Positions 16,209 through 47,340 of a stretch of DNA of 55,229 nt are shown here, in pieces; within the stretch, counting starts at the first letter, position 1, and the number at the start of each line of letters is the position of its first letter. The DNA comes from Burkholderiaceae bacterium (GTDB lineage: Bacteria; Pseudomonadota; Gammaproteobacteria; Burkholderiales; Burkholderiaceae_F): positions 1 to 55,229 of the forward strand of contig DATKPC010000103.1 of the NCBI GenBank assembly GCA_035524275.1. Direction: 5' to 3'. The notes beneath the pieces are model-generated. The model saw only the letters and a list, made by a program, of their open reading frames with translations, did no database searches and was not told where the DNA came from. The translations under genes were made by a program, and so were the position numbers.

Positions 16209-18614
<2,406 letters not shown>

Positions 18615-24172: not shown

Positions 24173-24790
24173 TCAGTCCGGCGACGACGTGTCGCCACCT
24201 TCCCACGGCGGCGCGACCTCGCCGGCACCGGCGTCGCCGGCCGTGCGCGGCCACGGGTCGTGGTCATCGAGGCCGAGGATGTAGTCCGCCTCCAGGTCGC
24301 CGACGTAGTACTGGTCGTTGATGAACGGCGATGCGCCCCACTGCGGCGGCCACATCCGCCAGACGCGCCTCGGCATCCGCGCGAAGAGCATCGCCGCCGT
24401 CACGGTCGCCTCGCGATAGCCGAGCGTCGGCGTCGGGCGGCGCGGGCGCGTCCGCAGCCAGTCGTAGGCGAGCACCGCCCGGCGGCAGTACTGGTACCCC
24501 GCGAGGACGAGGCCGAGGCGCGTGACGCGGCTGCCGCCATCCTCGTCGCCGAGCGTGGCGCGGCGCTCGACCGGACCGAGGCAGACCAGGCGCGCGACGG
24601 CCATCTCCTGCGCGCGGGCCCAGTCCAGGAAATTGACGCAGCGCTCGCGCGTTCGAAGCATGTCGTTCAGCTGCGCGATGCGGCTGCGCGAGAGGCCGAG
24701 GTCGATGAATTCGCGCGCGTGCCCGATCGCCTCGTGGCGATAGACCTCGAGGCGCGCATCGGCACCGTCGTCCACGCTGGAAGGAAGCAT
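24173..24790 (-). CDS. Hypothetical protein, 205 aa, no recognised domain.
   Basis: ORF co-directional with, and 87 nt downstream of, the sensor kinase gene. Composition is plausible but not distinguishable from background in this GC-rich DNA. Confidence 0.35.
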   Translation of the reverse strand: MLPSSVDDGADARLEVYRHEAIGHAREFIDLGLSRSRIAQLNDMLRTRERCVNFLDWARAQEMAVARLVCLGPVERRATLGDEDGGSRVTRLGLVLAGYQYCRRAVLAYDWLRTRPRRPTPTLGYREATVTAAMLFARMPRRVWRMWPPQWGASPFINDQYYVGDLEADYILGLDDHDPWPRTAGDAGAGEVAPPWEGGDTSSPD

Positions 24791-24876: not shown

Positions 24877-28050
<3,174 letters not shown>

Positions 28051-28210
28051 GTTGCGCGATCGCTCGTCCGACAGGGCAAGGCCATGCGCTTGCCCCTGAG
28101 TCTGTCAAGGTTACCCCGGACGTCTGGGCCGTGATCGGCCGGCGTCCGGGGTTTTAGCCTCCCTTTTGTTCCGCGGGGTTCGCGTCGTGGCGCGCTGCAC
28201 CGCAGCGACG

Positions 28211-28762
28211 TTACCCGCCGCCGCGCGCCGCCTCGGCGTCGGCACGTCCGGTGTGGCGGGTTGATACCGCCGCCAGGATGCCGCGCAGCAGGTCGCGCGG
28301 CGGCGGCGGGCAGCCGGGAATCGCGACGTCGACCGGGATCACGTGGGCGATCCGCCCGCGGCAGGCGTAGCTCTCGCCGAACACGCCGCCATCGCAGCCG
28401 CAGTCGCCGACGGCGACCACCAGCACGGGCTGCGGCGCCGCATCGTAGGTCCGGCGCAGCGCGGCCTCCATGTGGCGCGAGACCGGCCCGGTCACCAGGA
28501 GCATGTCGGCGTGCCGCGGGCTCGCGACGAAGCGGATCCCGAGGCCTTCGAGGTTGTAGTACGGATTGTTCAGCGCGTGGATCTCGAGCTCGCAGCCGTT
28601 GCACGAGCCGGCGTCGACCTGCCGGATCGAGAGCGCGCGGCCGACGATGGCGAGCAGCTCGCCGCGGATCCGCGCCTCGTCGCGCCGCCAGGCCTCGTTC
28701 GCCTCCGGCGCGGGCTCGGTCACCAGCCCGACGCGGGCCACCTGTCGCAACAGCTGCCACAT
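28211..28762 (-). CDS. NuoB / HycG-like small subunit of a group-4 [NiFe]-hydrogenase-related complex, 183 aa, retaining [4Fe-4S] ligands.
   Basis: SCNGCE…GDCGCDGG…PGCPP motifs are the NuoB-family proximal-cluster ligands. The start ATG overlaps the stop of the large-subunit gene (TGATG). Confidence 0.8.
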   Translation of the reverse strand: MWQLLRQVARVGLVTEPAPEANEAWRRDEARIRGELLAIVGRALSIRQVDAGSCNGCELEIHALNNPYYNLEGLGIRFVASPRHADMLLVTGPVSRHMEAALRRTYDAAPQPVLVVAVGDCGCDGGVFGESYACRGRIAHVIPVDVAIPGCPPPPRDLLRGILAAVSTRHTGRADAEAARGGG

Positions 28763-30324
28763 CAGAGATCGTGTCCGGAATAGCTGAGGTTGAAGGATTT
28801 GTTGATCAGCGGGAAGTCGGGGACGATGTTGTCGATCACCGCATGCTCCAGCACCGGCCAGTTGCGCCACGACGGATCGCTGAGGTGGCAGCGCCGGATC
28901 GCTCCCGACGGCGCGAGTTGAAGCGCGACGAGGATCTCGCCGCGCCAGCCCTCGACCCATCCGGCGCCGGCGCCGGCGCGCCCGATGTCGCCGACCGTCG
29001 CGAGCCGCGCGCCCTGCGGCAGCCCGCGCGCGATGTCGCGAATCAGCTGCAGCGACGATCGCAGCTCCGCGAACCGGACTTCGGCGCGGGCCGCGACGTC
29101 GCCGGCCGCGGCACTCGCGGCGCGCACCGCGAGCCGGTCGTAGGGCGGATGCGGATGGTCCGCGCGCAGGTCGCGCGCGATGCCGCTCGCGCGCCCCGCC
29201 AGCCCACAGAGGCCCAGCCGGGTCGCCAGCGGCGTCGCGACGCGACCGGTGCCGATGAACCGGTCCTGCAGCCCCGGATGCTCCTCGAAGATCGCATGCA
29301 GCCGCTCGACCTGCGGCTCCAGCGCATCGCATTGGGCGGCGAGGCGAGCGGCGGCGGCGGCGTCGAGGTCGACGCAGGTGCCGCCCGGCACGATGCGGTC
29401 CATCAGCAGCCGATGCCCGAACAGTTCGCCGTTGAGGCGCAGCCAGTCCTCCCTGAGCCGCGAGAATTGGGCCAGGCCGAACGCCAGCGCGACGTCGTTG
29501 GCCAGCGCGCCGAGGTCGCCGAGGTGGTTGGCAACCCGCTCGCGCTCCAGCAGCAGGCCGCGCAGCCAGGCGGCGCGATCCGGGACGGCGACGCCGGTCG
29601 CCGCCTCCAGCGCCATGCAGGTGGCCCACGCGTAGGCCACCGTCGAGTCGCCGCAGGCGCGCCCCGCGATGCGGTGCGCATCGAGCGGCGCGGTGCGTTC
29701 CATCAGCTGCTCGATTCCCTTGTGCACGTAGCCGAGGCGTTCTTCGAGCCGCAGGACCTTTTCGCCGACGACCGAGAACCGGAAATGACCCGGCTCGATG
29801 ATGCCGGCATGCACCGGCCCGACCGCGATCTCGTGGACGCCGTCGCCTTCGACGGTGACGAAGCGGTAGGGCTCCGGCTTCGCCGCCGGGACCGGCGCTG
29901 ATGACTCGCCTTCGCCGCGGCGCAGCGGGAAATAGCCGGCGGGCCACGCGTCATGCCGCAGCCAGGGCCGCTGGTCGGCGCTGCCGGCGGCGACGACGCC
30001 GGCCAGGTCGCGCGCCGCGCGCTGCATCCGGAGCGCCGCTGGGAAAAGCCGTGACACGTCCGGGTAGTCCGGATGCGAGGGCGCGAGCGCGAGCGTGATC
30101 CACGCGAGGCCGCCGGCGAACGCATAGGCCGCATGGACCGCCGGATCGCCTCCTTCCGTCGTTCCGCCCCACAGCGCGACGAGGCGTCCGCTGGCGCGGG
30201 CCGCTTCGGCCGCCGCCGTCCACTCCGCGGCGTCGACCGTGGCGCGCCCGATCGGCAGCGGCGCGTCCGTCGCCTCGAGCGCGATCGCGAGGCCGTCGAT
30301 GCGGTCGAAGCGGGGCGCCGGCAT
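28762..30324 (-). CDS. Fused NuoC-NuoD-like large subunit (HycE/HyfG-like) lacking the NiFe-binding cysteines, 520 aa.
   Basis: N-terminal NuoC-like domain, then a NuoD/hydrogenase large-subunit domain (GPVHAGIIEPGHFRF…LEERLGYVHKGIE). The L1 motif is RACGDS (hydrogenases RxCGxC). The C-terminal L2 is DPSWRNW (hydrogenases DPCxxC). Only 1 of 4 Ni-Fe Cys ligands remains. GGAGG lies 8 nt upstream. The start overlaps the hyfF-like stop. Confidence 0.85.
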   Translation of the reverse strand: MPAPRFDRIDGLAIALEATDAPLPIGRATVDAAEWTAAAEAARASGRLVALWGGTTEGGDPAVHAAYAFAGGLAWITLALAPSHPDYPDVSRLFPAALRMQRAARDLAGVVAAGSADQRPWLRHDAWPAGYFPLRRGEGESSAPVPAAKPEPYRFVTVEGDGVHEIAVGPVHAGIIEPGHFRFSVVGEKVLRLEERLGYVHKGIEQLMERTAPLDAHRIAGRACGDSTVAYAWATCMALEAATGVAVPDRAAWLRGLLLERERVANHLGDLGALANDVALAFGLAQFSRLREDWLRLNGELFGHRLLMDRIVPGGTCVDLDAAAAARLAAQCDALEPQVERLHAIFEEHPGLQDRFIGTGRVATPLATRLGLCGLAGRASGIARDLRADHPHPPYDRLAVRAASAAAGDVAARAEVRFAELRSSLQLIRDIARGLPQGARLATVGDIGRAGAGAGWVEGWRGEILVALQLAPSGAIRRCHLSDPSWRNWPVLEHAVIDNIVPDFPLINKSFNLSYSGHDL

Positions 30325-31790
30325 CAGGAACCTCCGATCAGCTGCGCGGCGCTGCGCCACCATGCGCCGAGGTACGGCGGGACGTAGAGTCCCAGCATCA
30401 GCGCGAGGCCGAGGTGGACGAAGATCGGCAGCAGCGCCGGCGCGTGCGGCAACGCGCGAACGCTGGGCTCGCCGAAGGCCATTTCCTGCACCTTCGAGAA
30501 CACCGCCGCGAACGCGACCGCGAGCGCGAGCAGCAGCAGCGGCGCCGCCCACGGCAGCTCGCGCATCGTGGTCGTCAGGATCAGGAACTCGCTCGCGAAG
30601 ACGCCGAAGGGCGGCATGCCGAGGATCGCGACGGTGCCGACGACGAGCCCCCAGCCGACGGTCGGGTTCGACTTCACGAGGCCGCGGATGGACTCCATCA
30701 GCTGCGTTCCGGCCTTCTGCGCCGCATGTCCGGCCGCGAAGAAGATCGACGACTTGACCAGCGAATGCACGGTCATGTGCAGCAGGCCGGCGAACGTCGC
30801 GACCGGGCCGCCGATCCCGAAGGCGAACGTCATCAGGCCCATGTGCTCGATCGACGAGTACGCGAAGAGCCGCTTGATGTCGCGCTGTCGCATCAGGAAG
30901 AACGACGCGCTGACGACCGACAGCAGTCCGAAGCCGACCATCAGGCTGCCGGCGAGGTGGTTGTGCAGCGCGCCGTCGGCAAGGACCTTGCTGCGCAGCA
31001 CCGCATAGAGCGCGACGTTCAGCAGGAGCCCGGAGAGGACCGCGGAGATCGGCGTCGGGCCTTCGGCGTGGGCATCCGGCAGCCAGTTGTGCACCGGGAC
31101 GAGGCCGACCTTCGTGCCGTAGCCGAGCATCAGGAAGACGAACGCGAGCGAAAGGATGTTCGGTTCCAGGCGGTCCTTGACGGCCTCCAGGTTGCTCCAC
31201 AGCAGCGCGCCGCCGCCGGGCCCGATGACCCGCTCGGCGGCGAGGAACAGCAGGATCGTCCCGAACAGCGCCTGCGCGATGCCGACCCCGCAGAGGATGA
31301 AGTATTTCCACGCGGCTTCGAGGCTGGCGGCGGTCCGGTAGACGCTCACCAGCAGCACGGTCGCCAGCGTCGCGGCCTCCATGGCGACCCACAGGATGCC
31401 GACGTTGTTCGTCGTCAGCGCCAGCAGCATCGTGAACGTGAAGAGCTGGTACATGCTGTGGTAGAGGCGCATCCGCGGCGGCGTCATGCGCCCGTGGTCC
31501 TGCTCGATGCGCATGTAGGGGATCGAGAACAGCGCCGTCGTCAGGCCGACGAAGGCGGTCAGCGCGACCAGGAAGACGTTGAGCGGGTCGATCAGGAAGG
31601 CCTGCCCGAAATGGAAGCCCGGGCCGTCGGCGACGACGCGCGCGACGAGCGCCGCGGCGGCCGCCAGCGTCGCGGCGCTGAAGCCGGCGTTGACGGCCGC
31701 AGCGGCGCGGCGCGCGCCGATCACGCCGAGCGTCGCGGCGCCGGCGAGCGGGATGGCGAGGAGGACGGCGAGGCCGTCGATCTCATTCAT
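30324..31790 (-). CDS. NuoN/NuoM-like antiporter-type membrane subunit (HyfF-like), 488 aa.
   Basis: About 14 TM helices with conserved complex-I antiporter-like core motifs (…WLPDAHAEGPTPISA…). Confidence 0.82.
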   Translation of the reverse strand: MNEIDGLAVLLAIPLAGAATLGVIGARRAAAAVNAGFSAATLAAAAALVARVVADGPGFHFGQAFLIDPLNVFLVALTAFVGLTTALFSIPYMRIEQDHGRMTPPRMRLYHSMYQLFTFTMLLALTTNNVGILWVAMEAATLATVLLVSVYRTAASLEAAWKYFILCGVGIAQALFGTILLFLAAERVIGPGGGALLWSNLEAVKDRLEPNILSLAFVFLMLGYGTKVGLVPVHNWLPDAHAEGPTPISAVLSGLLLNVALYAVLRSKVLADGALHNHLAGSLMVGFGLLSVVSASFFLMRQRDIKRLFAYSSIEHMGLMTFAFGIGGPVATFAGLLHMTVHSLVKSSIFFAAGHAAQKAGTQLMESIRGLVKSNPTVGWGLVVGTVAILGMPPFGVFASEFLILTTTMRELPWAAPLLLLALAVAFAAVFSKVQEMAFGEPSVRALPHAPALLPIFVHLGLALMLGLYVPPYLGAWWRSAAQLIGGS

Positions 31791-32400
31791 CCTTCAGCCT
31801 CTCGAGGTGCTGGATGTCGAGGCTGTCGAACTGTTCGCGGATCTGGAACATGAAGACGCCGAGGATCAGCAGCCCGACGAGGACGTCGAGCGCGATGCCG
31901 AGCTCGACGACCATCGGCATGCCGTAGGTCGCCGCGGTGGCGGCGAAGAACAGCGCGTTTTCCATCGACAGGAAGCCGATCACCTGCGGCACCGCCTTCG
32001 CCCGCGTGATCATCATCATGAACGACAGCAGCACGCACGCCAGCGCGATGCCGAGCGAGCCGCCGGCCACCGACGAGGTCAGGCGGGCGATCGGCGCCGC
32101 GAGGTTGAAGGAGAAGACGACGAGCACGATCCCGATCAGCATCGTCGTCGGGATGTTGATGAGGGTCTCGACGTCCCACTTGACGTCGAGGCGGTCGATC
32201 AGCCGGTGCAGCGCCACCGGCAGCGCGACGACCTTCAGCAGCAGCGTGACGAGCGCCGAGAAGAACAGGTGCGGCTGTCCGGTCGCGCGCGCGACGAGCG
32301 CGGTGGCCAGCGCCAGCGCCAGGCCCTGCAGCGTGAAGAGCCGGATCAGCAGCAGCACGCGGCGCTGCGACAGCATCGCGAAGGCGAGCAGCAGCAGCAC
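31783..32400 (-). CDS. HyfE-like small membrane subunit of hydrogenase-4-type complexes, 205 aa.
   Basis: Six predicted TM helices. Size and position (between the NuoH-like and NuoN-like genes) match hyfE in hyf operons. Confidence 0.65.
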   Translation of the reverse strand: MLLLLAFAMLSQRRVLLLIRLFTLQGLALALATALVARATGQPHLFFSALVTLLLKVVALPVALHRLIDRLDVKWDVETLINIPTTMLIGIVLVVFSFNLAAPIARLTSSVAGGSLGIALACVLLSFMMMITRAKAVPQVIGFLSMENALFFAATAATYGMPMVVELGIALDVLVGLLILGVFMFQIREQFDSLDIQHLERLKDE

Positions 32401-32443
32401 CGCGGCGAGCAGGTTGATCAGCTGGGGCAGCAGCGCGTCGATC

Positions 32444-33397
32444 TCAGGCTCCCAGCAGCAGGTGGACCAGCATCCCGAGCACCGCGAGCAGGAACGCGGT
32501 GGCGAGGAACTCCGGGACGCGGAAGACGCGCATCTTGGCGCTCGTCGCCTCGACCAGCGCGAGCGCGGCGCCGCCGATCGCGAGCTTCAGCAGCAGCACC
32601 GGGATCGCGAGCACGAGGGCCAGCGGCTCGCCGGCCTCGGCGACGCCCCACGGGAAGAACAGCGCCAGCCCGATGCACGAGTACGCGAAGAGCTTGAGGC
32701 TCGCGGCCCACTCCAGCAGCGCCAGGTGGCGCCCCGAGTACTCCAGGACCAGCGCCTCGTGGATCATCGTGAGCTCGAGGTGCGTCGACGGATTGTCGAC
32801 CGGGACCCGGGCGTTTTCCGCCAGCGACACCATCGTGAAGGCGACGCCGGCGAACGCCAGGCTGGGATAGATCGCGAACTCGCGGTGCGCGAGCGACCCG
32901 ACGATCTGGGTCAGCGACGTCGATTGCGTGATCAGCGACGCGGAGAACAGCACCGTGAGCAGCGCCGGTTCGGCCAGGAAGCCGACCAGCATCTCGCGCC
33001 GCGCGCCGAGCGTGCCGAACGCCGTGCCGATGTCCATCGCGGCGAGCGATATGCACATGCGCGCGACGCTGAAGAGCCCGACGAGCGCGATGGCGTCGGC
33101 CGCCGGCGCCAGCGGCAGATCGGTCGACAGCGTCGGCACGATCCCGCAGGACAGCGCCATGCAGCCGAAGACGACGTACGGCGCGCCGCGGAACAGCGGC
33201 GAGGCGTTGTCGGCGACGACCGCCTCGCGCGCGAACAGCTTGCGCAGCGTCCGGTACGGCTGCAGCAGGCTCGGCGCCGAGCGGTTCAGCAGCCACGCGC
33301 GGCACTGGTTGACCCACCCGCTGAGCAGCGGCGCGAGCAGCAGCGCGAGCGACAGCTCGAGCAGCTGCGCCGCGGCGCCGGTCCAGCTCAGTCCCAT
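32444..33397 (-). CDS. NuoH-like membrane subunit (HycD/HyfC-like), 317 aa.
   Basis: Starts MGLSWTGAAAQLLELSLALLLAPLLSGWVNQ…, typical of the HycD/NuoH family. Its start overlaps the stop of the preceding NuoL-like gene by 8 nt. The track ORF (1088 aa) has a long Arg-rich spurious N-terminal extension. Confidence 0.85.
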   Translation of the reverse strand: MGLSWTGAAAQLLELSLALLLAPLLSGWVNQCRAWLLNRSAPSLLQPYRTLRKLFAREAVVADNASPLFRGAPYVVFGCMALSCGIVPTLSTDLPLAPAADAIALVGLFSVARMCISLAAMDIGTAFGTLGARREMLVGFLAEPALLTVLFSASLITQSTSLTQIVGSLAHREFAIYPSLAFAGVAFTMVSLAENARVPVDNPSTHLELTMIHEALVLEYSGRHLALLEWAASLKLFAYSCIGLALFFPWGVAEAGEPLALVLAIPVLLLKLAIGGAALALVEATSAKMRVFRVPEFLATAFLLAVLGMLVHLLLGA

Positions 33398-35394
33398 GAT
33401 CGGATCACCATCAGCATCGCGAGCAGCGTCAGGAAGCTGTAGAGCAGGTAGACCGAGATGCGGCCCTGCTGCAGCGCGGAGAACCGGCGGGCGATGCGCT
33501 CGACCACGGCGGCGATCGGCAGGTACAACGCGTGCCAGGCATGGTCCTCGATCGTCACGCGATAGCGCGGCTGCGCGTCGAACGGCGTCGGCAGGACGCG
33601 CTCGAGGCGGAAGAACGGCTCGAAGATCTGCCGGATCGGCTGCCCGAAGCCCTCGGCGGTGTCCTGCATGCGCGCGCCGAGCGCCCCGAAGCCGCAGTCC
33701 CACGGCGCGCTGCGCCGCAGCTTTTCGTGGAAGGCCCGGCGCACGACGAGCCAGGCCGCCGCGCAGCCGCCGCCGACGACGACGAGAAAGACGAGCGGCC
33801 CGTAGCTGGCGCGCGCAACCGAGGTGGGCACGAGCAGCAGCCAGCCGTGCGCGCGTGCCGCCTCGCCGATGCCGGATCCGACGAGCACGCGGGTCACCGG
33901 GTCGATCGCCGCGATCAGCGGGACCGGGAAGAGGCCCACCGCGAGCCCGCAGGCGACGAGCCAGGCGAGACCGGCGCGTTCCCACGGCCGGGCGTCGCGA
34001 GCCTGTGCCAGTGCCGGCTCGCGCGGCTGGCCGAGGAAGACGACGCCGAAGAACTTCACCATCACGTAGCCGGCCAGCGCCGAGACGAGCGCCACCGCGG
34101 CGGCCCCGACGGGCACGAGCATGCTCAGGTACGCCGGTGGCAGCTGCGGGCTGAAGAGGAAACCCTGCAGCAGCAGCCACTCGGAGACGAAGCCGCCGAG
34201 CGGCGGCAGGCCGGCGCTCGCCAGCGCGCCGAACAGCATCGTCCAGGCGACCCACGGCATCGGCCGCACGAGCCCGCCGAGCCGGCCGAGGTTGCGCTCG
34301 CCGGTCGCATGCAGCACCGAGCCGGTGCCGAGGAACAGCAGGCTCTTGAACAGCGCATGGCTGGCGACGTGGTAGAGCGCGGCCGTGAGCGCGAGCGCGG
34401 CCGGGACGACCATGCCATGGGCCTTGAAGAGGATCGCGAGCCCGATGCCGGCGAGCAGCAGGCCGATGTTCTCGATCGAGGAATAGGCGAGCAGCCGCTT
34501 CATGTCGGTCTGCACCGCGCTGAACAGCACGCCGAAGATCGCCGTCAGGAGCCCGAGCGCGAGCAGCAGCGCGCCCCACCACCAGGGCTGCATCGGGAGC
34601 ACGTCGAACGTGATTCGCAGCAGCCCGTAGATCGCCGTCTTCAGCATCACGGCGCTCATCAGCGCCGAGACCGGCGACGGCGCCGCCGGGTGCGCTTCGG
34701 GCAGCCAGACGTGCAGCGGCACGGCGCCGGCCTTCGCGCCGAAGCCGGCGAGCGCGAGCAGGAACGCGGCGCCCGCCCAGGCCGGCGCGAGCTGCTGCGC
34801 CCGCAGGTTGGCGAACGTGTAGTCGCCGGTGTTGGCCTGCAGGACACCGAAGCACAGCAGCAGCGCGATCGCGCCGACGTGCGCCATCAGCAGGTAAAGG
34901 AAGCCGGCGCGCCGGATCTCGGCGATCCGGTGGTTCGCGATGACGAGGAAGTAGGACGAAAGCGCCATGGCCTCCCACAGCACCATGAACGCGAAGGCGT
35001 CGTCGGCGACGAGCAGCAGCGCCATGCTGGCGAGGAACGCGTGGTATTCGAGGCACAGCAGGCCCGGCGGCGTGCCTTCGCCGTGGCGGAAGTAGCCGGC
35101 CGCGAACGCCGAAATGCCCACCGTGGTTACGCCGAGCACGGCGAGGAAGAACGCCGAAAGGCTGTCGAGCCGCAGGTGGAACGGCAGCTGCGGCAGCCCG
35201 ATCGGCAGCACCGCGACCTCCGGCGTCGCGAAGATCGCCGACCCGGCGACGACGGCCAGCGCGAGGCCGCCCGCGGCGCCGAGCGGGAAGAGGACCTGCG
35301 CGACGATGCGGAAGCGGCGCAGCCACGCCAGCCCGAGGAACCCGATCACCAGCCATGCGGCGGCGATCGCGAGGATCCAGTCGAGGTGGAGCAC
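33388..35394 (-). CDS. NuoL-like antiporter-type membrane subunit (HyfB/HycC-like), 668 aa, GTG start.
   Basis: About 16-17 TM helices with conserved NuoL/HyfB core (…WLPEAHPAAPSPVSALMSAVMLK…). It is the first structural gene of the operon. Confidence 0.85.
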   Translation of the reverse strand: MLHLDWILAIAAAWLVIGFLGLAWLRRFRIVAQVLFPLGAAGGLALAVVAGSAIFATPEVAVLPIGLPQLPFHLRLDSLSAFFLAVLGVTTVGISAFAAGYFRHGEGTPPGLLCLEYHAFLASMALLLVADDAFAFMVLWEAMALSSYFLVIANHRIAEIRRAGFLYLLMAHVGAIALLLCFGVLQANTGDYTFANLRAQQLAPAWAGAAFLLALAGFGAKAGAVPLHVWLPEAHPAAPSPVSALMSAVMLKTAIYGLLRITFDVLPMQPWWWGALLLALGLLTAIFGVLFSAVQTDMKRLLAYSSIENIGLLLAGIGLAILFKAHGMVVPAALALTAALYHVASHALFKSLLFLGTGSVLHATGERNLGRLGGLVRPMPWVAWTMLFGALASAGLPPLGGFVSEWLLLQGFLFSPQLPPAYLSMLVPVGAAAVALVSALAGYVMVKFFGVVFLGQPREPALAQARDARPWERAGLAWLVACGLAVGLFPVPLIAAIDPVTRVLVGSGIGEAARAHGWLLLVPTSVARASYGPLVFLVVVGGGCAAAWLVVRRAFHEKLRRSAPWDCGFGALGARMQDTAEGFGQPIRQIFEPFFRLERVLPTPFDAQPRYRVTIEDHAWHALYLPIAAVVERIARRFSALQQGRISVYLLYSFLTLLAMLMVIRSWD

Positions 35395-35421
35395 GGCCGA
35401 CGCCTGCGGGAAGCCGGCGCC

Positions 35422-35622
35422 TCAGCGCGGGCGCGCGCCGCGCGCCGCGCTCGCGAGCCACGCCGGCAGCTTGCGGCCGTCGGCGTGGGCCACGATGTAT
35501 TCGCGGATCAGCTGGCGCACGACCTGCGACGGCGTGAGGTCCTGCGCGGCGCAGATCTCCTCGAAGAGCTGCTTCTTCCGCGGATCGATGAGGAGTGTCA
35601 GCCGGGCGGTCTTGTTTTCCAT
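35422..35622 (-). CDS. Small ribbon-helix-helix (CopG/Arc/MetJ-like) DNA-binding protein, 66 aa.
   Basis: MENKTARLTLLIDPRKKQLFEEICAAQDLTPSQVVRQLIREYI has a beta-strand/helix/helix pattern typical of RHH regulators. It is encoded immediately upstream of, and co-directional with, the hydrogenase-like operon. The track ORF is 28 codons longer. Confidence 0.55.
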   Translation of the reverse strand: MENKTARLTLLIDPRKKQLFEEICAAQDLTPSQVVRQLIREYIVAHADGRKLPAWLASAARGARPR

Positions 35623-35632
35623 CGGAGGTCTT

Positions 35633-35680
35633 CGGGCGGTCGGGCGGTCGGGAAAGCGTCGGGCGGTCGGGAAAGCGTGT
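35633..35680. promoter_or_regulatory. Tandem direct repeats (GTCGGGCGGTCGGGAAAGC ×2 plus a partial third) in the divergent promoter region between the RHH gene and the arginase gene.
   Basis: Seen directly: …ttcgggcggtcgggcggtcgggaaagcgtcgggcggtcgggaaagcgtg… It is a candidate operator array for the RHH protein (inference). Confidence 0.4.
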
Positions 35681-35781
35681 GCACCGCATGGTAATGATAT
35701 TTTCATTCAAGGCAAATAGGATGCGACTACCTGGCGCCGCGCCCCTGGCCGGCCGCGGGCGTTCCGGGTTACATTGCGCCG

Positions 35782-36702
35782 ATGAAACGTCCCGTGAGCC
35801 TGATCGGGGCGCCGACCGACATCGGCGCCGGCGTGCGCGGCGCGTCGATGGGCCCCGAGGCGCTGCGGGTCGCGAGCATCGGGCCGCTGCTGGAGGCCCT
35901 GGGCCTCGACGTCGTCGATCGCGGCAATCTCTCCGGCCCGACGAATCCCTGGCTTCCCGCGGTCGATGGCTACCGCCACCTGCCGCAGGTCGCCGAGTGG
36001 GCGCTCGCGGTCCACGACGCCGTGCTTGCCGAGCTGCGGCTCGGCCGGCTGCCGCTGCTCCTCGGCGGCGACCACTGCCTCGGGATCGGATCGATCGCCG
36101 CGGTGGCGCGGCATTGCCGCGACGCCGGGCGCAAGCTGCGCGTGCTATGGCTCGACGCGCACGCCGACTTCAATACGAGCCAGCTCACGCCGAGCGGCAA
36201 TATCCATGGCATGCCGGTGGCGATCCTCTGCGGGCACGGGCCGCGGCCGCTCGTCGAGCTCGGCGGCACGGTGCCGGCGCTGCATCCGTCGTGGGTCCGG
36301 CAGATCGGGATCCGCAGCGTCGATCCCGGCGAGAAGCACTTCGTCCACGAAGTCGACCTCGAGGTGTTCGACATGCGCTTCATCGACGAGATGGGCATGC
36401 GACACGCGATGGAACTCGCGCTGGCGACGATGGACCACGGAACGCACCTTCACGTGAGCTTCGACGTCGACTTCCTCGATCCGGACGTCGCGCCCGGGGT
36501 CGGCACCACGGTTCGCGGCGGGCCGACCTACCGCGAGGCGCAACTGTGCATGGAGATGATCGCCGACACCGGGCTCCTCGGGTCGCTCGACGTCGTCGAG
36601 CTCAACCCGGCGCTCGACCTGCGGAACCGCACCGCCGAAGTGGCGGTCGATCTCGTGCAGAGCCTGTTCGGGAAGTCGACGCTGCTGAGGAAGCGCAGGT
36701 AG
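35782..36702 (+). CDS. rocF: Arginase (ureohydrolase family), 306 aa.
   Basis: GGDHCLGIGSIAAVA…DAHADFNT…SFDVDFLDP Mn-binding motifs. Closest to arginase rather than agmatinase by overall pattern. Confidence 0.85.
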   Translation: MKRPVSLIGAPTDIGAGVRGASMGPEALRVASIGPLLEALGLDVVDRGNLSGPTNPWLPAVDGYRHLPQVAEWALAVHDAVLAELRLGRLPLLLGGDHCLGIGSIAAVARHCRDAGRKLRVLWLDAHADFNTSQLTPSGNIHGMPVAILCGHGPRPLVELGGTVPALHPSWVRQIGIRSVDPGEKHFVHEVDLEVFDMRFIDEMGMRHAMELALATMDHGTHLHVSFDVDFLDPDVAPGVGTTVRGGPTYREAQLCMEMIADTGLLGSLDVVELNPALDLRNRTAEVAVDLVQSLFGKSTLLRKRR

Positions 36703-45482: not shown

Positions 45483-46799
45483 TCAGAAGGCCCAGTAGGG
45501 GCCGTTGCCGCTCGGCGTCGCGGAATTCTCGAACGCCGTGTAGATCGTGCGTCCGTAGAAGAACGGCAGCCCGTAGTCGACGCCGCCGATCCCGGTCAGG
45601 CCGGCGCCCGCGTCGGAGGCGCCGAGGTCGGCGAACGCGGTGCTGGTGCCATTGCTCGCAAACTCGGCGTGCGCATTGGCGATCGTGATCGTCACGGTGC
45701 CGGAATTGCCCGGATAGGTTCCGGTCGACGGGTTGTAGCCTTCGTTCGTGACGCCGCTGATCGTCGTGGTCGCGGTCGGGCAATAGAAGCCCGGTGTCAG
45801 CGTATCGCTGCTCGAGCAGCTGGCGATCGTCGAATCCGGCAGGAAATAGAGGTTCGAGCCGCTGTCGACGAAGCTTGCATCGGTATATGACGTGCCCTTG
45901 TAGATCGTCGTGAAGTTGCCGGAGTTCGGATTCACGTCGTAGACCGTCGTGCCGGACGTCACGGCATTGTTGGTTTGCGTCCCGATCCCGAAGGTCATCG
46001 TTCCGCTGATGCCGCTGCCGACGCCGCCGGTGCCGAGCGACGGCAGCGCCAGGATGACGCCGTTGTTGTCGGTCGCGAACGACGCGACGGGATTCGAAAC
46101 CTGCTGTGCCGGCGGCACGGTCGACGGCGTGCAGGTCGTCGACGTGCAGCCGTAGTAGGTGCCGGCGACCGCGACCGCCTGGTTGCAGGCCGCGCCGCAA
46201 TCCTGCAGGAAGATGCCGACGCCGAGCAGGCCGTTGGACTGCAGGTCGCCTGTCGTCTTGGCTTCGCTGCCGCTGGTGGAGCAACCGCTGGGCACCGCGA
46301 GGGTCGGGTCGCCGATGACCTGCATCGGCAGCGACTTGGCGGTTTCATTGCCGACCTTCAGGTCGATCGTGCGCACCGAACCCCAGGTGTAGAAGCTGCC
46401 GAACTGGACGCACTCGTAGAGGTTGCCGCCGACGGGCGCGCTGGCGGCCGGCAGGCCGAGGCTCGTGTTGAGCACCGACGAGAGGATCCGCAGCCCGTAG
46501 CTGCCGGTGTCGACCGTGACGTGGTCGATCGTCTGGCAGGTCGTCGTGCCCGGCACGCAGATCGTGACCGAGACGTAGGGAATGTTGAACGCGCCGTTGG
46601 TCGGCCCGCCGTCGATCGTGATGGCGACCTGGTTGCTCGCGAGCGTGCCGCCGGAACTGCTCCCACCGGAGCTGCTGCTGGAACTGCCGCCGCTGGAGGA
46701 GCCGCCCGTCGTCGTCGACGAGCCGCCGCTGCCGCCGCAACCGGCGACGGCGAGCAGCGCCGCCATCGCGCCGGTGAAGAAGAGTCGCTTCAACATCAT
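45483..46799 (-). CDS. DUF3443-like lipoprotein, 438 aa, with a lipobox (LLAVAGC) and a Gly/Ser-rich linker.
   Basis: Signal peptide plus lipobox Cys, a GGSSSGGSSSSSSGGSSSGG linker, and a Thr/Ser/Gly-rich beta-rich body with conserved Cys pairs and the C-terminal GLPFFYGR motif. Confidence 0.65.
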   Translation of the reverse strand: MMLKRLFFTGAMAALLAVAGCGGSGGSSTTTGGSSSGGSSSSSSGGSSSGGTLASNQVAITIDGGPTNGAFNIPYVSVTICVPGTTTCQTIDHVTVDTGSYGLRILSSVLNTSLGLPAASAPVGGNLYECVQFGSFYTWGSVRTIDLKVGNETAKSLPMQVIGDPTLAVPSGCSTSGSEAKTTGDLQSNGLLGVGIFLQDCGAACNQAVAVAGTYYGCTSTTCTPSTVPPAQQVSNPVASFATDNNGVILALPSLGTGGVGSGISGTMTFGIGTQTNNAVTSGTTVYDVNPNSGNFTTIYKGTSYTDASFVDSGSNLYFLPDSTIASCSSSDTLTPGFYCPTATTTISGVTNEGYNPSTGTYPGNSGTVTITIANAHAEFASNGTSTAFADLGASDAGAGLTGIGGVDYGLPFFYGRTIYTAFENSATPSGNGPYWAF

Positions 46800-46836
46800 G
46801 GATGGGGCCTTTCGCGTTGCGGTCCGGAGCCGCGCA

Positions 46837-47340
46837 TCAGCGGATCGTGTCGATGGAGACGCCCGCGGGGACGGCGTCCGGCAGGTAGGCGCGGCCGCGG
46901 AAGGCTCGCAGGTGTCCGGTCGACTCGACGACGAGTCCCGGCTCGGTCACCGTCAGGTGCGCGTGGCCCGCCTGCAACCGATGCGTCGAGCCGGTGAAGG
47001 TCGCGAAGTGCGCGCCGAGCAGCCGGCGCAGATCGGGCATGAATGGACCCTGCCACGCGACACCATAGACGACGCCGGCGGGCGAGACGAATTCGCGCAC
47101 GGTCGTCCCGCGGTCCGACGTCATCTCGTGGACCGCGAAGCCTTCGCGCGGCGTGACCTGGACGGCCGCCGCCGCCCGCATCGCGGTGCCGTCGGCCTGC
47201 ACGCTGGCCGCGTCGCCACCGAGCGTCGCGCGCGACGGCGTCGGCAGCAGCACCGCGAGGCCAAGCGCCGGCAACAGCGCCCGGAGGCCGGCCGCGCGAC
47301 GCGCGGTACGTGGGGTGGCTCGCTTCGATCTCAATGTCAT
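46837..47340 (-). CDS. DUF2844-like secreted protein, 167 aa, the usual partner of DUF3443.
   Basis: Signal peptide (LRALLPALGLAVLLPTPSRA). Family resemblance (…VHEMTSDRGTTVREFVSPAGVVYGVAWQGP…). It is encoded immediately upstream of the DUF3443 gene in the same orientation. Confidence 0.6.
   Translation of the reverse strand: MTLRSKRATPRTARRAAGLRALLPALGLAVLLPTPSRATLGGDAASVQADGTAMRAAAAVQVTPREGFAVHEMTSDRGTTVREFVSPAGVVYGVAWQGPFMPDLRRLLGAHFATFTGSTHRLQAGHAHLTVTEPGLVVESTGHLRAFRGRAYLPDAVPAGVSIDTIR

What the first reader, a model, noticed from the sequence alone, without database searches (positions are those of the whole stretch)
28211..35680. Six-gene operon for an Ehr-type (energy-converting hydrogenase-related) membrane complex with no NiFe-site ligands, no ferredoxin subunit and no electron-input module
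The minus-strand operon encodes, in order:
- an RHH regulator
- a NuoL-like subunit (668 aa)
- a NuoH-like subunit (317 aa)
- a HyfE-like subunit (205 aa)
- a NuoN/M-like subunit (488 aa)
- a fused NuoC-NuoD-like large subunit (520 aa)
- a NuoB-like small subunit (183 aa)

Adjacent genes overlap by 1-8 nt (TGATG/ATGA), consistent with translational coupling.

This is the membrane arm plus Q-module skeleton of group-4 [NiFe] hydrogenases (Hyc/Hyf/Ech). The HycF/NuoI-type 2×[4Fe-4S] ferredoxin subunit is missing, and so are HycB/HyfA-type electron-transfer subunits, formate dehydrogenase and hyp maturation genes.

The large subunit cannot bind a NiFe centre (see the separate finding below). The small subunit keeps all four Cys of the proximal [4Fe-4S] cluster (SCNGCE / GDCGCDGG / GCPP).

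This combination matches the poorly characterised Ehr complexes, proposed as evolutionary links between group-4 hydrogenases and complex I. Their substrate, electron donor and physiological role are unknown, so this is a strong candidate for the undescribed system in this window. Its proximity (~5 kb) to a Mo-CO-dehydrogenase cluster and a large sensor kinase is suggestive.
Basis: partly seen in the sequence, partly recalled or inferred. Interest (0 to 1): 0.88.

Follow-up and report, generated by a model that had tools for sequence, protein, structure and literature searches.

The report
Hyq/Ehr hydrogenase-like membrane complex operon

Summary
On the minus strand, 28211-35622 carries a small RHH_9 regulator followed by HyfB-, HycD-, HyfE-, HyfF-, HycE(NuoC-NuoD)- and HycG(NuoB)-like genes, all intact. 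No HycF/NuoI, HycB, formate dehydrogenase or hyp gene lies in the operon or elsewhere in the 55-kb window.

The large subunit lacks three of the four [NiFe] cysteines, and the fourth is not conserved in relatives. The small subunit keeps all four [4Fe-4S] cysteines, which are invariant in about 78 related loci.

- The same six genes, in the same order, are the Azorhizobium caulinodans hyqBCEFGI "endo-hydrogenase" operon (2009, 2012).
- They are also the Ehr / "group-4f-like" complexes reported in Nitrospira, Methylocystis and others.
- More than 598 species genomes carry the family.
- NCBIfam equivalog models name two of the subunits.

The cox cluster and the sensor kinase are not conserved neighbours. 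The only recurrent neighbour genes are small regulators.

My best reading is a redox-coupled proton-translocating complex. Its lone [4Fe-4S] cluster would serve a remodelled, invariant Asp/Ser/Glu pocket and take electrons from a partner encoded elsewhere. It is not a [NiFe] hydrogenase. The substrate remains unknown.

Verdict: new member of a known, uncharacterised kind.

The parts
35422..35622 (-). Small ribbon-helix-helix regulator (RHH_9), first gene of the operon. The mechanical ORF extends to the ATG at 35706, but homologues and the Pfam match start at Met29 = 35622.
   Evidence: PF19839 E=8e-33, residues 29-89. The Burkholderia homologue starts METKTARLTVLIDP. An RHH gene lies within 700 nt upstream of hyfB in 14 of 63 related loci by tblastn, and 18 loci fall in the RHH cluster.
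35640..35677 (-). Two tandem copies of the 19-nt unit CGCTTTCCCGACCGCCCGA in the leader between an AT-rich promoter-like stretch and the RHH start. Candidate operator; function not tested.
   Evidence: Direct reading and exact match positions.
33388..35394 (-). HyqB/HyfB: antiporter-like (NuoL/HycC-type) membrane subunit, 668 aa, with the HycC-type C-terminal extension.
   Evidence: NF005086, 891 bits against cutoff 667. PDB best hit HycC 7z0s_C, 2e-62, over residues 12-605. TM5 Glu141, TM7 Lys221 and TM12 Lys350 are conserved in related loci.
32444..33397 (-). HyqC/HycD: NuoH-like membrane subunit, 317 aa. Its ATG overlaps the hyfB stop by 10 nt.
   Evidence: PF00146 E=9e-33. PDB best hit HycD 7z0s_D, 9e-39, then MbhM 5e-14; complex I NuoH-type (NdhA, 7wff_A) only 2e-4. 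Frame found.
31783..32400 (-). HyqE/HyfE-like small membrane subunit, 205 aa from the GTG. The true start may lie about 14 codons upstream.
   Evidence: NF008556 'hydrogenase 4 membrane subunit' E=8e-20, below cutoff. No PDB or Pfam match. Present at this position in 73 related loci.
30324..31790 (-). HyqF/HyfF: second antiporter-like subunit (NuoM/N, MbhH/MbsH-type), 488 aa.
   Evidence: NF005045, 864 bits against cutoff 543. PDB best hits MbsH 6u8y_H 8.5e-36 and MbhH 6cfw_H 1.9e-28. Glu138, Lys227 and Lys346 are invariant; the TM8 position is an invariant Asn258 where MbhH/MbsH have Lys.
28762..30324 (-). HyqG: fused NuoC-NuoD / HycE-like 'large subunit', 520 aa, without a NiFe site. Motifs are RACGDSTVAY (L1 position) and NKSFNLSYSGHDL at the C-terminus (L2 position).
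   Evidence: PDB best hit HycE 7z0s_E, 4e-60, with residue alignment. AF2 model pLDDT 85, pTM 0.88. Foldseek top hit 7z0s_E, TM 0.85, then E. coli NuoCD.
28211..28762 (-). HyqI: NuoB/HycG/MbhJ-like small subunit, 183 aa, with the four Cys of one [4Fe-4S] cluster (C54, C57, C121, C151) and no ferredoxin domain.
   Evidence: PF01058 E=4e-30. PDB best hits MbhJ 8e-36 and HycG 3e-34, with the Cys aligned. The four Cys are present in every related locus whose alignment covers the position (78/78, 78/78, 77/77, 75/75).

Best explanation
Identity (about 0.95). This is a complete RHH-hyqBCEFGI-type operon. It encodes a six-subunit membrane complex of the Ehr family, which is also called Hyq in rhizobia and 'group-4f-like' in hydrogenase surveys.

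The shown features are:
- Its anatomy is that of formate hydrogenlyase / hydrogenase-4 stripped of HycF/HyfH, HycB/HyfA and the extra antiporter HyfD.
- The NiFe cysteines are replaced.
- The single [4Fe-4S] site of the small subunit and the Glu/Lys channel residues of both antiporter-like subunits are kept under strong selection.

Inferred mechanism (about 0.35-0.4). It works as a redox-coupled proton (or cation) translocating oxidoreductase, not as a [NiFe] hydrogenase.
- A separately encoded soluble carrier, ferredoxin- or flavodoxin-like, docks on HyqI. In FHL and complex I that surface is covered by HycF/NuoI.
- The carrier exchanges electrons with the lone [4Fe-4S] cluster.
- The cluster serves a substrate bound in the former NiFe/quinone pocket of HyqG. 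This pocket is now lined by an invariant polar/acidic set: Ser/Cys224, Asp226, Ser/Thr227, Glu177, Asp483, Asn512 and Ser514.
- Charge changes in the pocket are passed through the conserved beta1-beta2 loop (GPVHAGIIEPGHFRF) and HyqC/HyqE to HyqB and HyqF, which move protons.
- The reaction could run either way: energy-conserving, or pmf-driven reduction of a low-potential acceptor.

The substrate is unknown.
For: - Family assignments and full-length matches of all six subunits.
- The nearest solved homologues are the FHL subunits: HycC 2e-62, HycD 9e-39, HycE 4e-60 and HycG 3e-34. The fold match to HycE has TM 0.85.
- The order L-H-E-N-CD-B is kept in all 82 related loci long enough to show it. 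These come from Beta-, Gamma- and Alphaproteobacteria, Acidobacteria and Nitrospirota, and no ferredoxin gene is inserted.
- In the small subunit, C54, C57, C121 and C151 are present in every locus whose alignment covers them.
- In the large subunit, the ligand positions are Ser/Ala, Ser/Thr, Ser and Gly, while D226, D483 and E177 are invariant in 82/82 and N512 in 81/82.
- Among 93 sequences (92 representatives of 50%-identity clusters plus the window protein), the changes travel together. The Cys set, together with Ser483, Ala484 and the C-terminal Arg, is swapped for Ser/Gly, Asp483, Pro484 and Leu.
- Antiporter TM5 Glu, TM7 Lys and TM12 Lys are invariant in both HyqB and HyqF.
- A sister Ehr subtype and a Cys-containing relative carry a 2x[4Fe-4S] ferredoxin domain fused to the small subunit. 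This shows that electron entry through that face is normal for the lineage.
- Literature: Ehr complexes lack NiFe ligands and are not induced by H2 in Nitrospira (PMC12342949).
Against: - No partner is identified. No redox gene is a conserved neighbour.
- Genetics in Azorhizobium tie the orthologous operon to H2 output (PMC3357923), which this model does not explain directly.
- The pocket residues are inferred from alignment to HycE, not from a structure of this complex. The AF2 monomer is low-confidence (pLDDT <50) for residues 151-200, which hold the beta1-beta2 loop.
- Quinone use is doubtful. The complex I quinone ligands Nqo4 His38 and Tyr87 align to Ile176 and Gly225. Complex I's tandem CC motif is GC here, with a hydrogenase-type CxxC.
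Confidence: 0.6

Rival explanations
1. It is a true 'endo-hydrogenase', a cytoplasm-facing, bidirectional H2:quinone oxidoreductase with a non-canonical catalytic site, as proposed for Azorhizobium caulinodans Hyq.
For: - The gene set and order are the same as hyqBCEFGI, and each subunit is 40-58% identical to the Rhizobium hyq-like operon.
- In A. caulinodans, deleting hyq slows diazotrophic growth (PMC2650096).
- The deletion also removes about 80% of microaerobic H2 evolution. High H2 output persists in a nifK hupSL mutant (PMC3357923).
Against: - Three of the four NiFe Cys and the C-terminal Arg are absent, and the fourth Cys is not conserved.
- The three Cys that the Hyq authors found conserved in alphaproteobacterial HyqG (258, 491, 497) are Ala275, Ile507 and Leu513 here. 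At the two positions counted across relatives, most have Ile at 507 and Leu at 513; at 275, most of 19 close relatives have Gly.
- The complex I quinone ligands and the tandem-Cys motif are absent.
- There are no hyp genes in the window.
- No enzyme has ever been purified.
- Nitrospira Ehr is not induced by H2 (PMC12342949), and no H2 evolution was detected in Methylocystis under the oxic conditions tested (bioRxiv 10.1101/2025.08.29.672306).
Confidence: 0.15
2. It is essentially a pH- or ion-homeostasis device: an Mrp-like cation/proton translocator. The peripheral arm and its FeS cluster would be structural or regulatory (for example redox gating) rather than catalytic.
For: - There is no input module and no conserved redox neighbour.
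- It has two Mrp/antiporter-like subunits with intact channel residues.
- The orthologous ehfA-F genes of Methylocystis are among the genes most induced at pH 5, log2FC +4.2 to 4.5 (bioRxiv 10.1101/2025.08.29.672306).
Against: - The four cluster Cys and the pocket residues D226, D483, E177 and N512 are strictly invariant across phyla. That is more than a scaffold would need.
- All known relatives that retain a NuoB-NuoD module are redox enzymes.
- Acid induction is also compatible with a proton-consuming or proton-pumping redox reaction.
Confidence: 0.12
3. It is the membrane partner of the neighbouring Mo-CO-dehydrogenase: CO-derived electrons would enter the complex, with the sensor kinase regulating both.
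For: A coxMSLG-DEF-like cluster lies at 14.6-22.1 kb. A dCache-PAS-GAF histidine kinase lies directly downstream of the operon at 24877-28050.
Against: - The cox genes are on the opposite strand. Four other genes lie between them and the operon: an unassigned 395-aa ORF, a phosphoesterase, a 205-aa unknown and the kinase.
- No cox-like gene family appears among the families shared by four or more of the 82 related loci within 5 kb of the operon. The kinase gives one partial match.
- Aerobic Cox enzymes deliver electrons at high potential to the quinone or cytochrome pool and need no such partner (established knowledge).
Confidence: 0.03
4. It is a decaying remnant of a group-4 hydrogenase operon with no function.
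For: The catalytic ligands and accessory genes are lost.
Against: - All six ORFs are intact and full-length against their homologues.
- At least 598 species genomes keep the same six genes in the same order.
- There are 60 invariant columns across large subunits 35-67% identical to the window protein.
- The replacement residues themselves are invariant.
Confidence: 0.02

Closest known systems
Azorhizobium caulinodans Hyq 'endo-hydrogenase' (hyqRBCEFGI; Ng et al. 2009 PMC2650096; Sprecher et al. 2012 PMC3357923) and its rhizobial orthologues
   Same: - It has the same six structural genes in the same order, preceded by a small regulator gene.
- HyqG is a fused NuoC-NuoD protein lacking both CxxC motifs, and HyqI has four conserved Cys.
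- There is no HyfA, HyfD or HyfH equivalent.
- Against the Rhizobium ruizarguesonis pRlX2 operon, identities are: large subunit 48.5%, small 58%, HyfF-like 55%, HycD-like 50%, HyfB-like 46% and HyfE-like 40%.
   Different: - The regulator here is an RHH_9 protein, not the about 104-aa HTH protein seen in the Rhizobium hyq-like operon.
- No sigma-54/NifA-type promoter lies upstream.
- The three Cys conserved in alphaproteobacterial HyqG are Ala275, Ile507 and Leu513 here.
- The host is a Burkholderiales-like organism with no nif context in the window.
[quoted passage not shown] 2013, as reported in Nitrospira, Margulisbacteria and M. tuberculosis (PMC10284858, PMC12342949, PMC6349859, PMC6728331)
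   Same: [quoted passage not shown]
- It lacks the NiFe-binding cysteines.
- It has antiporter-like subunits.
- Its function is unknown.
   Different: Ehr is a loose umbrella term. Some Ehr subtypes carry a ferredoxin domain on the small subunit, and some sit next to formate dehydrogenase genes (PMC6349859). This operon has neither.
Group 4f [NiFe]-hydrogenases (Ehf), the cysteine-bearing sister sequences
   Same: - They are 35-43% identical over the full length.
- They share the beta1-beta2 loop GP[IV]HAGIIEPGHFRF and an almost identical C-terminal frame, PDFPLINKSF-L-Y---D-.
   Different: - They keep RxCGxCxxSH and NKSFELCYxCxDR; here the motifs are RACGDSTVAY and NKSFNLSYSGHDL.
- The one relative examined has a 274-aa small subunit with a (faint) Pfam ferredoxin-domain hit.
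E. coli formate hydrogenlyase (Hyc, PDB 7z0s) and hydrogenase-4 (Hyf)
   Same: - It is the best solved-structure match for HyqB, HyqC and HyqG, and second best for HyqI.
- The small subunit has the hydrogenase-type CxxC motif.
   Different: - This operon has no HycF/HyfH, HycB/HyfA, FdhF, HycH/HycI or Hyp genes.
- It has no NiFe ligands.
- It has no C-terminal extension for protease processing.
- It has the extra HyfE- and HyfF-like subunits, as in Hyf but not Hyc.
Respiratory complex I (Nuo/Nqo) and photosynthetic NDH-1
   Same: - It shares homologous NuoB, C, D, H and L/M/N modules.
- The antiporter Glu/Lys residues are conserved.
   Different: - There are no NuoE/F/G, NuoI or recognisable NuoA/J/K genes.
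- The quinone ligands Nqo4 His38 and Tyr87 align to Ile176 and Gly225.
- The tandem Cys of cluster N2 is absent.
Pyrococcus furiosus MBS/MBX (PDB 6u8y)
   Same: - It is a precedent for a group-4-hydrogenase-derived complex that lost H2 chemistry and uses the proximal cluster for another substrate.
- MbsH is the best solved match for HyqF.
   Different: MBS has 13 subunits, including a NuoI-like ferredoxin subunit and an Mrp module. Its large subunit is only a distant match here (6u8y_L, 1.5e-16).

Membership tests
[NiFe]-hydrogenase, group 4 | Four Cys ligands of the NiFe centre (L1 RxCGxCxxxH, L2 DPCxxCxxR/H) | tested here: not met
   The window has RACGDSTVAY and NKSFNLSYSGHDL, so only the first L1 Cys is present. 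In 82 relatives that position is Ser 73, Ala 5, Cys 3 and Val 1, and the other three positions are never Cys.
[NiFe]-hydrogenase, group 4 | Small subunit with a proximal [4Fe-4S] cluster (CxxC...GxC...GCPP) | tested here: met
   C54, C57, C121 and C151 align to the MbhJ/HycG ligands and are invariant in relatives.
[NiFe]-hydrogenase, group 4 | Hyp maturation genes (hypA-F) in the genome | tested here: inconclusive
   None is found among the genes of the 55-kb window. The rest of the genome could not be searched.
Formate hydrogenlyase / hydrogenase-4 (Hyc/Hyf) | HycF/HyfH 2x[4Fe-4S] subunit, HycB/HyfA and a formate dehydrogenase partner | tested here: not met
   There is no such gene in the operon, whose boundaries are the divergent arginase-family gene at 35782 and the kinase at 28050, nor in the window. 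None is inserted in the 82 related operons.
Ehr (energy-converting hydrogenase-related complex) | Homologous to group-4 hydrogenase subunits but lacking the residues that bind Ni and Fe (definition as given in PMC6349859, PMC10284858) | tested here: met
   The window sequence falls in a clade with 0-1 Cys in an NJ tree of 93 sequences, 92 representatives plus the window (no support values, no outgroup).
Ehr (energy-converting hydrogenase-related complex) | Antiporter-like (Mrp/NuoL-type) membrane subunits in the same operon | tested here: met
   HyfB- and HyfF-like genes, PF00361 E=3e-56 and 2e-51.
Hyq endo-hydrogenase (A. caulinodans hyqRBCEFGI) | Six structural genes in the order B-C-E-F-G-I behind a small regulator gene | tested here: met
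   The order is RHH, HyfB, HycD, HyfE, HyfF, HycE-like, HycG-like. It is collinear with the Rhizobium hyq-like operon. The regulator families differ: RHH here, HTH in Rhizobium.
Hyq endo-hydrogenase (A. caulinodans hyqRBCEFGI) | [quoted passage not shown] | tested here: not met
   The Rhizobium orthologue has GAICND and FPLCNKSFNCSYSG. The window has GALAND and FPLINKSFNLSYSG. In relatives, position 507 is Ile 63 / Cys 18 and position 513 is Leu 62 / Cys 3.
Hyq endo-hydrogenase (A. caulinodans hyqRBCEFGI) | NifA / sigma-54 dependent expression (member of the nif regulon) | tested here: not met
   There is no TGGCAC-N5-TTGCW-like site (up to 2 mismatches) between 35400 and 35800, and matches in the whole window are at chance level. 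Expression itself is not testable here.
Hyq endo-hydrogenase (A. caulinodans hyqRBCEFGI) | Hyq-dependent H2 uptake or evolution in vivo | not testable with these tools
   This needs mutants and gas measurements in a cultured carrier.
Respiratory complex I | Quinone-binding Tyr and His of NuoD (Nqo4 Y87, H38) and the tandem-Cys ligation of cluster N2 | tested here: not met
   Nqo4 H38 aligns to Ile176 and Y87 to Gly225. NDUFS7 'CC' aligns to 'GC'.
Respiratory complex I | NuoI plus the NADH-oxidising module NuoE/F/G | tested here: not met
   These genes are absent from the operon and the window.

The most novel reading that the evidence does not exclude
The invariant Asp226/Asp483/Glu177/Asn512/Ser pocket that replaced the NiFe site, one electron-transfer step from a lone [4Fe-4S] cluster, may be a new kind of catalytic site. 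One possibility is a cysteine-free H2-converting centre, which would vindicate the Azorhizobium genetics. Another is a site for some other small hydrophilic substrate whose turnover drives, or is driven by, proton translocation without any dedicated electron-input module.
Probability: 0.12. Interest if true: 0.85.

Novelty: new member of a known kind. Interest (0 to 1): 0.3.

Why it matters
Ehr/Hyq complexes are among the most widespread complex-I relatives with no assigned reaction. They occur in Burkholderiales, iron and sulfur oxidisers, methanotrophs, Nitrospira, acidobacteria and rhizobia, and a related operon occurs in M. tuberculosis. They sit at the evolutionary junction between hydrogenases and complex I.

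Knowing their substrate would fill a real gap in bacterial bioenergetics. It would also settle a 15-year-old disagreement between the genetic claim of an 'endo-hydrogenase' and the sequence argument that no NiFe site exists.

This window does not open that question further. It adds one more uncultured member.

What the comparison here does add:
- A sharper definition of the family signature: an invariant Asp/Ser/Glu pocket together with an invariant FeS site.
- The finding that no electron donor is genomically linked.
- The finding that the cysteines once proposed for Hyq catalysis are not conserved.

Tried and rejected
1. **Link to cox and the sensor kinase.** I searched 82 related loci by tblastn with the window's neighbours, and clustered all flank ORFs de novo. 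No conservation was found, so the link is rejected.

2. **A conserved electron donor next to the operon.** The recurrent neighbour families are:
   - RHH (14-18 loci)
   - sigma-54 response regulators (15)
   - a spermidine-synthase-like methyltransferase fold (about 14)
   - SulP (8)
   - TauE (7)
   - DUF1275/YoaK
   - branched-chain 2-oxoacid dehydrogenase, only in Burkholderia/Paraburkholderia (3)

   None is general.

3. **The polyamine idea.** It rested on the arginase-family gene here and the spermidine-synthase-like genes elsewhere. The arginase gene is unique to this window, so I left this as a remark only.

4. **A sigma-54 promoter as in hyq.** None was found.

5. **Consensus promoter and terminator scan of the operon.** There were no sigma-70 hits, and the terminator-like hits were inside genes or on the other strand. 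The scan was uninformative.

6. **NJ tree of representatives.** It is star-like, without an outgroup or support values. I used it only to show that the window's nearest clade has no Cys-bearing member, not to infer polarity.

7. **AF2 monomer.** I could not measure distances in the pocket.

8. **Wasted literature searches.** Two were too broad and gave nothing useful.

Full report
**What is there**

The window has about 71% G+C, so mechanical ORF lists are full of shadow frames. Using third-position G+C and translation, the minus strand between 35622 and 28211 carries seven real genes.
- RHH: 35422-35622. The mechanical ORF runs to 35706.
- HyfB-like: 33388-35394, 668 aa.
- HycD/NuoH-like: 32444-33397, 317 aa. 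It was not listed as a separate ORF because its frame stays open far upstream.
- HyfE-like: 31783-32400, 205 aa.
- HyfF-like: 30324-31790, 488 aa.
- Fused NuoC-NuoD/HycE-like: 28762-30324, 520 aa.
- NuoB/HycG-like: 28211-28762, 183 aa.

Pfam and NCBIfam confirm each assignment. Two subunits pass curated NCBIfam equivalog cutoffs over their whole length: 'hydrogenase 4 subunit B' (NF005086, 891 bits against 667) and 'hydrogenase 4 subunit F' (NF005045, 864 bits against 543). Curated models for exactly this kind of protein therefore already exist.

The gene junctions are a 10-nt overlap, a 43-nt gap, an 8-nt overlap, a 1-nt overlap and a 1-nt overlap. A 27-nt gap follows the RHH gene.

The operon is bounded upstream by a divergently transcribed arginase-family gene (35782-36702). 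Downstream, after 160 nt, lies a dCache-PAS-GAF-PAS histidine kinase gene (24877-28050).

The other genes of the window are:
- malic enzyme, OPG synthesis genes, a Na+/H+ exchanger, GCS2, PAP2 and an aldehyde dehydrogenase;
- a PAS-LytTR regulator and coxMSLG-DEF-like genes;
- DUF3014, a creatininase-family gene and an MCP;
- a Band-7 protein, BON-LysM and a DUF3443/DUF2844 pair;
- a peptide ABC transporter, an MFS transporter and a MarR regulator.

None of these genes is a hyp, HycF/NuoI-like, HycB-like or formate dehydrogenase gene.

**The cofactor sites**

The best solved homologue of the large subunit is E. coli HycE (7z0s_E, E=4e-60).
- HycE RVCGICGFAH aligns with RACGDSTVAY.
- HycE DPCYSC aligns with NLSYSG.
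- So Cys224 remains, while the other three ligand positions are Ser227, Ser514 and Gly517.

The AF2 model has mean pLDDT 85 and pTM 0.88. Its best PDB match is HycE (TM 0.85), followed by E. coli NuoCD.

Aligned to T. thermophilus Nqo4, the quinone ligands His38 and Tyr87 fall on Ile176 and Gly225.

The small subunit aligns best with MbhJ and HycG, and all four cluster cysteines are in place. Complex I subunits show 'CC' where this protein has 'GC' preceded by a hydrogenase-type CxxC. HycD is by far the best match for the NuoH-like subunit (9e-39, against 2e-4 for a complex I-type NuoH homologue, NdhA). HycC is the best match for the HyfB-like subunit (2e-62). The complex is therefore hydrogenase-like rather than complex-I-like in detail, but it has no NiFe site.

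**How general this is**

The exact large subunit is in ENA on one metagenome contig. The nearest relatives, at about 67% identity, are from Caldimonas, Ideonella, Piscinibacter, Ramlibacter and Rhodoferax MAGs.
- The exhaustive search of 50%-identity representatives gave 955 clusters at E<=1e-30.
- Of 93 sequences (92 full-length representatives plus the window protein), 17 carry three or four NiFe cysteines (RxCGxCxxSH ... NKSFELCYxCxDR). The other 76 carry none or one.
- The window falls in a clade with no Cys-bearing member. That tree has no outgroup or support values, so I draw no conclusion on polarity.
- The switch is concerted. The Cys set, Ser483, Ala484 and the terminal Arg are replaced together by Ser/Gly, Asp483, Pro484 and Leu.

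The 80 loci kept span the following groups:
- Burkholderiales, Gallionella, Thiobacillus, Rhodocyclaceae and Acidithiobacillus;
- Steroidobacter, Rhodanobacter and Methylobacter;
- Acidobacteria, Nitrospirota and an alphaproteobacterium.

Every locus with enough sequence has the same order L-H-E-N-CD-B, with nothing inserted.

Across these loci and two plasmid loci:
- The four small-subunit cysteines are present in every locus whose alignment covers them (78/78, 78/78, 77/77, 75/75).
- Large-subunit position 224 is Ser 73, Ala 5, Cys 3 and Val 1.
- Position 227 is Ser 67 and Thr 13; position 514 is Ser 73; position 517 is Gly 80.
- Asp226, Asp483 and Glu177 are invariant (82/82), and Asn512 is present in 81/82.

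The TM5 Glu, TM7 Lys and TM12 Lys of both antiporter-like subunits are conserved. HyfF has an invariant Asn258 at the TM8 position where MbhH and MbsH have Lys.

This is strong purifying selection on an FeS site, on a remodelled pocket and on the proton channels. That is what one expects of a working redox-coupled ion translocator, not of a relic.

**Neighbourhood**

I used tblastn with the window's own neighbours and those of a Burkholderia plasmid, then clustered all ORFs within 5 kb of the operon de novo. No conserved redox partner appears.
- An RHH gene just upstream, more often divergent than co-oriented: 14 of 63 loci by tblastn, and 18 loci in one cluster.
- Sigma-54-dependent response regulators: 15 loci.
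- A spermidine-synthase-fold protein: about 14.
- SulP: 8. TauE: 7.
- DUF1275/YoaK: Burkholderia, Paraburkholderia and Rhizobium.
- Branched-chain 2-oxoacid dehydrogenase genes: Burkholderia and Paraburkholderia only.

The cox cluster, arginase gene, DUF3014, creatininase and the 205-aa unknown are unique to this window. The kinase gives one partial match.

**What is already known**

Homologous operons on Burkholderia, Paraburkholderia, Variovorax, Cupriavidus and Rhizobium replicons are annotated hyfB / NuoH / formate hydrogenlyase / hydrogenase 4 subunit F / NuoC / NuoB.

The Rhizobium operon is collinear with the window's. Per-subunit identities are 40-58%. Its large subunit is 504 aa, with GRTSGDSTVAY ... 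FPLCNKSFNCSYSGHDL. [quoted passage not shown]

The authors of those papers reported the following:
- The operon is NifA/sigma-54 dependent.
- Its deletion slows diazotrophic growth (PMC2650096).
- Its deletion removes about 80% of microaerobic H2 evolution, and a nifK hupSL mutant still evolves H2 (PMC3357923).
- They themselves judged a binuclear NiFe site 'uncertain, if not unlikely'.

Others call the same kind of complex Ehr. They place it next to group 4f hydrogenases and state that its function is unknown and that a hydrogenase role is unlikely (PMC10284858; PMC12342949, which also notes no induction by H2 in Nitrospira moscoviensis; PMC6349859; PMC6728331 for M. tuberculosis).

A 2025-26 preprint reports that the 'group 4f' ehfA-F genes of Methylocystis, whose large-subunit motif ends in ...AARVS, are among the most strongly induced genes at pH 5. 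No H2 evolution was detected under the oxic conditions used (bioRxiv 10.1101/2025.08.29.672306).

In the window protein, the three 'Hyq' cysteines are Ala275, Ile507 and Leu513. In most relatives position 507 is Ile and position 513 is Leu, and at position 275 most of 19 close relatives have Gly. They cannot be a general catalytic site.

**How it most likely works**

These points are shown:
- The complex has FHL-like architecture minus the ferredoxin subunits.
- It has one conserved [4Fe-4S] site.
- It has a conserved, Cys-free polar/acidic pocket at the former NiFe position.
- It has intact antiporter channels.
- It has no linked donor.

The mechanism is inferred. With a single cluster there is only one way through: a carrier docking on the small subunit, then the cluster, then the pocket.

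A sister Ehr subtype lies in tandem with the Hyq-type operon in Variovorax, Methylibium, Aquabacterium and a Nitrospirota MAG. In the Variovorax copy examined, a 2x[4Fe-4S] ferredoxin domain is fused to the small subunit. The Cys-bearing relative P0160 has a 274-aa small subunit with a faint Pfam ferredoxin-domain hit. This supports electron entry at that face of the small subunit. The window's type would then rely on a free carrier.

Coupling to HyqB and HyqF would go through the strictly conserved GPVHAGIIEPGHFRF loop and HyqC/HyqE, as in FHL, MBH and complex I.

I put about 0.95 on the identity and about 0.35-0.4 on this mechanism. The rivals are:
- a non-canonical H2-converting enzyme (0.15);
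- an ion or pH-homeostasis device with a non-catalytic cluster (0.12);
- a CO-dehydrogenase partner (0.03);
- a relic (0.02).

**Verdict**

It is a further member of a family that has been named, annotated and partly studied genetically, not an undescribed system. The scientific question behind it, what these complexes do, remains open and interesting. This window from an uncultured bacterium does not make it more testable than the many cultured carriers already do.

Noticed in passing
window 35640-35677 (minus strand): Two exact tandem copies of the 19-nt unit CGCTTTCCCGACCGCCCGA, followed by a partial copy. They lie between an AT-rich promoter-like stretch (TTGCCT...N16...TACCAT) and the probable RHH start at 35622. 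This may be the operator of the RHH repressor.
   Followed up: partly
window 32400-32446 (minus strand): The HyfE-like ORF starts at the GTG at 32400, leaving a 43-nt gap. The upstream in-frame peptide (IDALLPQLINLLAA) is conserved in homologues that start earlier (e.g. L017 VSVLPLHSQLINLLAA). There is no ATG/GTG/TTG there, so a non-canonical start (ATC or CTG) right after the hycD-like stop is possible.
   Followed up: partly
L002 1-5398; also L006 40-2929, L014 197-3743, L068 152-4419: A second, paralogous Ehr-type operon lies directly upstream of the Hyq-type operon in four genomes. In the Variovorax copy (L002), the only one examined, the large subunit is also Cys-less (SIVGDSSVAY ... FPLCNKSFDLSYCGNDL). 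Its 250-aa small subunit has an N-terminal 2x[4Fe-4S] ferredoxin domain fused to the NuoB-like domain.
   Followed up: partly
window 30324-31790 (HyfF-like, residue 258): The TM8 position that is Lys in MbhH and MbsH (and in the window's HyfB-like subunit) is Asn258 here. It is Asn in all 76 related loci that could be read.
   Followed up: partly
window 16209-18614 (+): The CoxL-like large subunit of the Mo-hydroxylase cluster has the active-site loop VAYRCSLR. This resembles the form-I CO-dehydrogenase signature AYxCSFR (recalled from memory, not checked here), with Leu in place of Phe. The cluster also has CoxM, S, G, D, E and a MobA-like gene.
   Followed up: no
L001 16034-21973; L019 12149-18079; L015 16391-19479: In Burkholderia and Paraburkholderia replicons, the operon lies next to a branched-chain 2-oxoacid dehydrogenase cluster. 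In the two Burkholderia loci, a small hypothetical gene and a DUF2909 twin-TM gene lie between the operon and that cluster. In Methylocystis, the orthologous ehf genes and BCKDH are co-induced at pH 5 (bioRxiv 10.1101/2025.08.29.672306). This may be a lineage-specific functional link.
   Followed up: partly
window 35782-36702 (+); L001 4512-7492, L002 7729-8463 and 16666-17424, and about 10 other loci: An arginase/agmatinase-family gene is divergent from the operon in the window. In about 14 other loci, a spermidine-synthase-fold gene (some annotated as fused MFS/spermidine synthase) sits next to the operon. Both point loosely to polyamine metabolism, but the arginase gene is unique to this window.
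   Followed up: partly
window 28114-28151 (minus strand): A 9-bp G+C-rich inverted repeat (CCCCGGACG ... CGTCCGGGG, 20-nt loop) lies 60 nt after the hyqI stop, with no T-run. It is followed by a TTGACA hexamer ahead of the kinase gene. This is a possible operon end; the consensus terminator scan did not call it.
   Followed up: no
window 45483-47340 (minus strand): A lipoprotein-like DUF3443 protein (438 aa, E=8e-117) lies next to a DUF2844 protein (167 aa, E=4e-39). This is a pair of unknown function, unrelated to the finding.
   Followed up: no
window 24173-24790 (minus strand): A 205-aa ORF downstream of the histidine kinase has a coding-like composition but no Pfam match and no homologue in any of the 82 related loci.
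   Followed up: no
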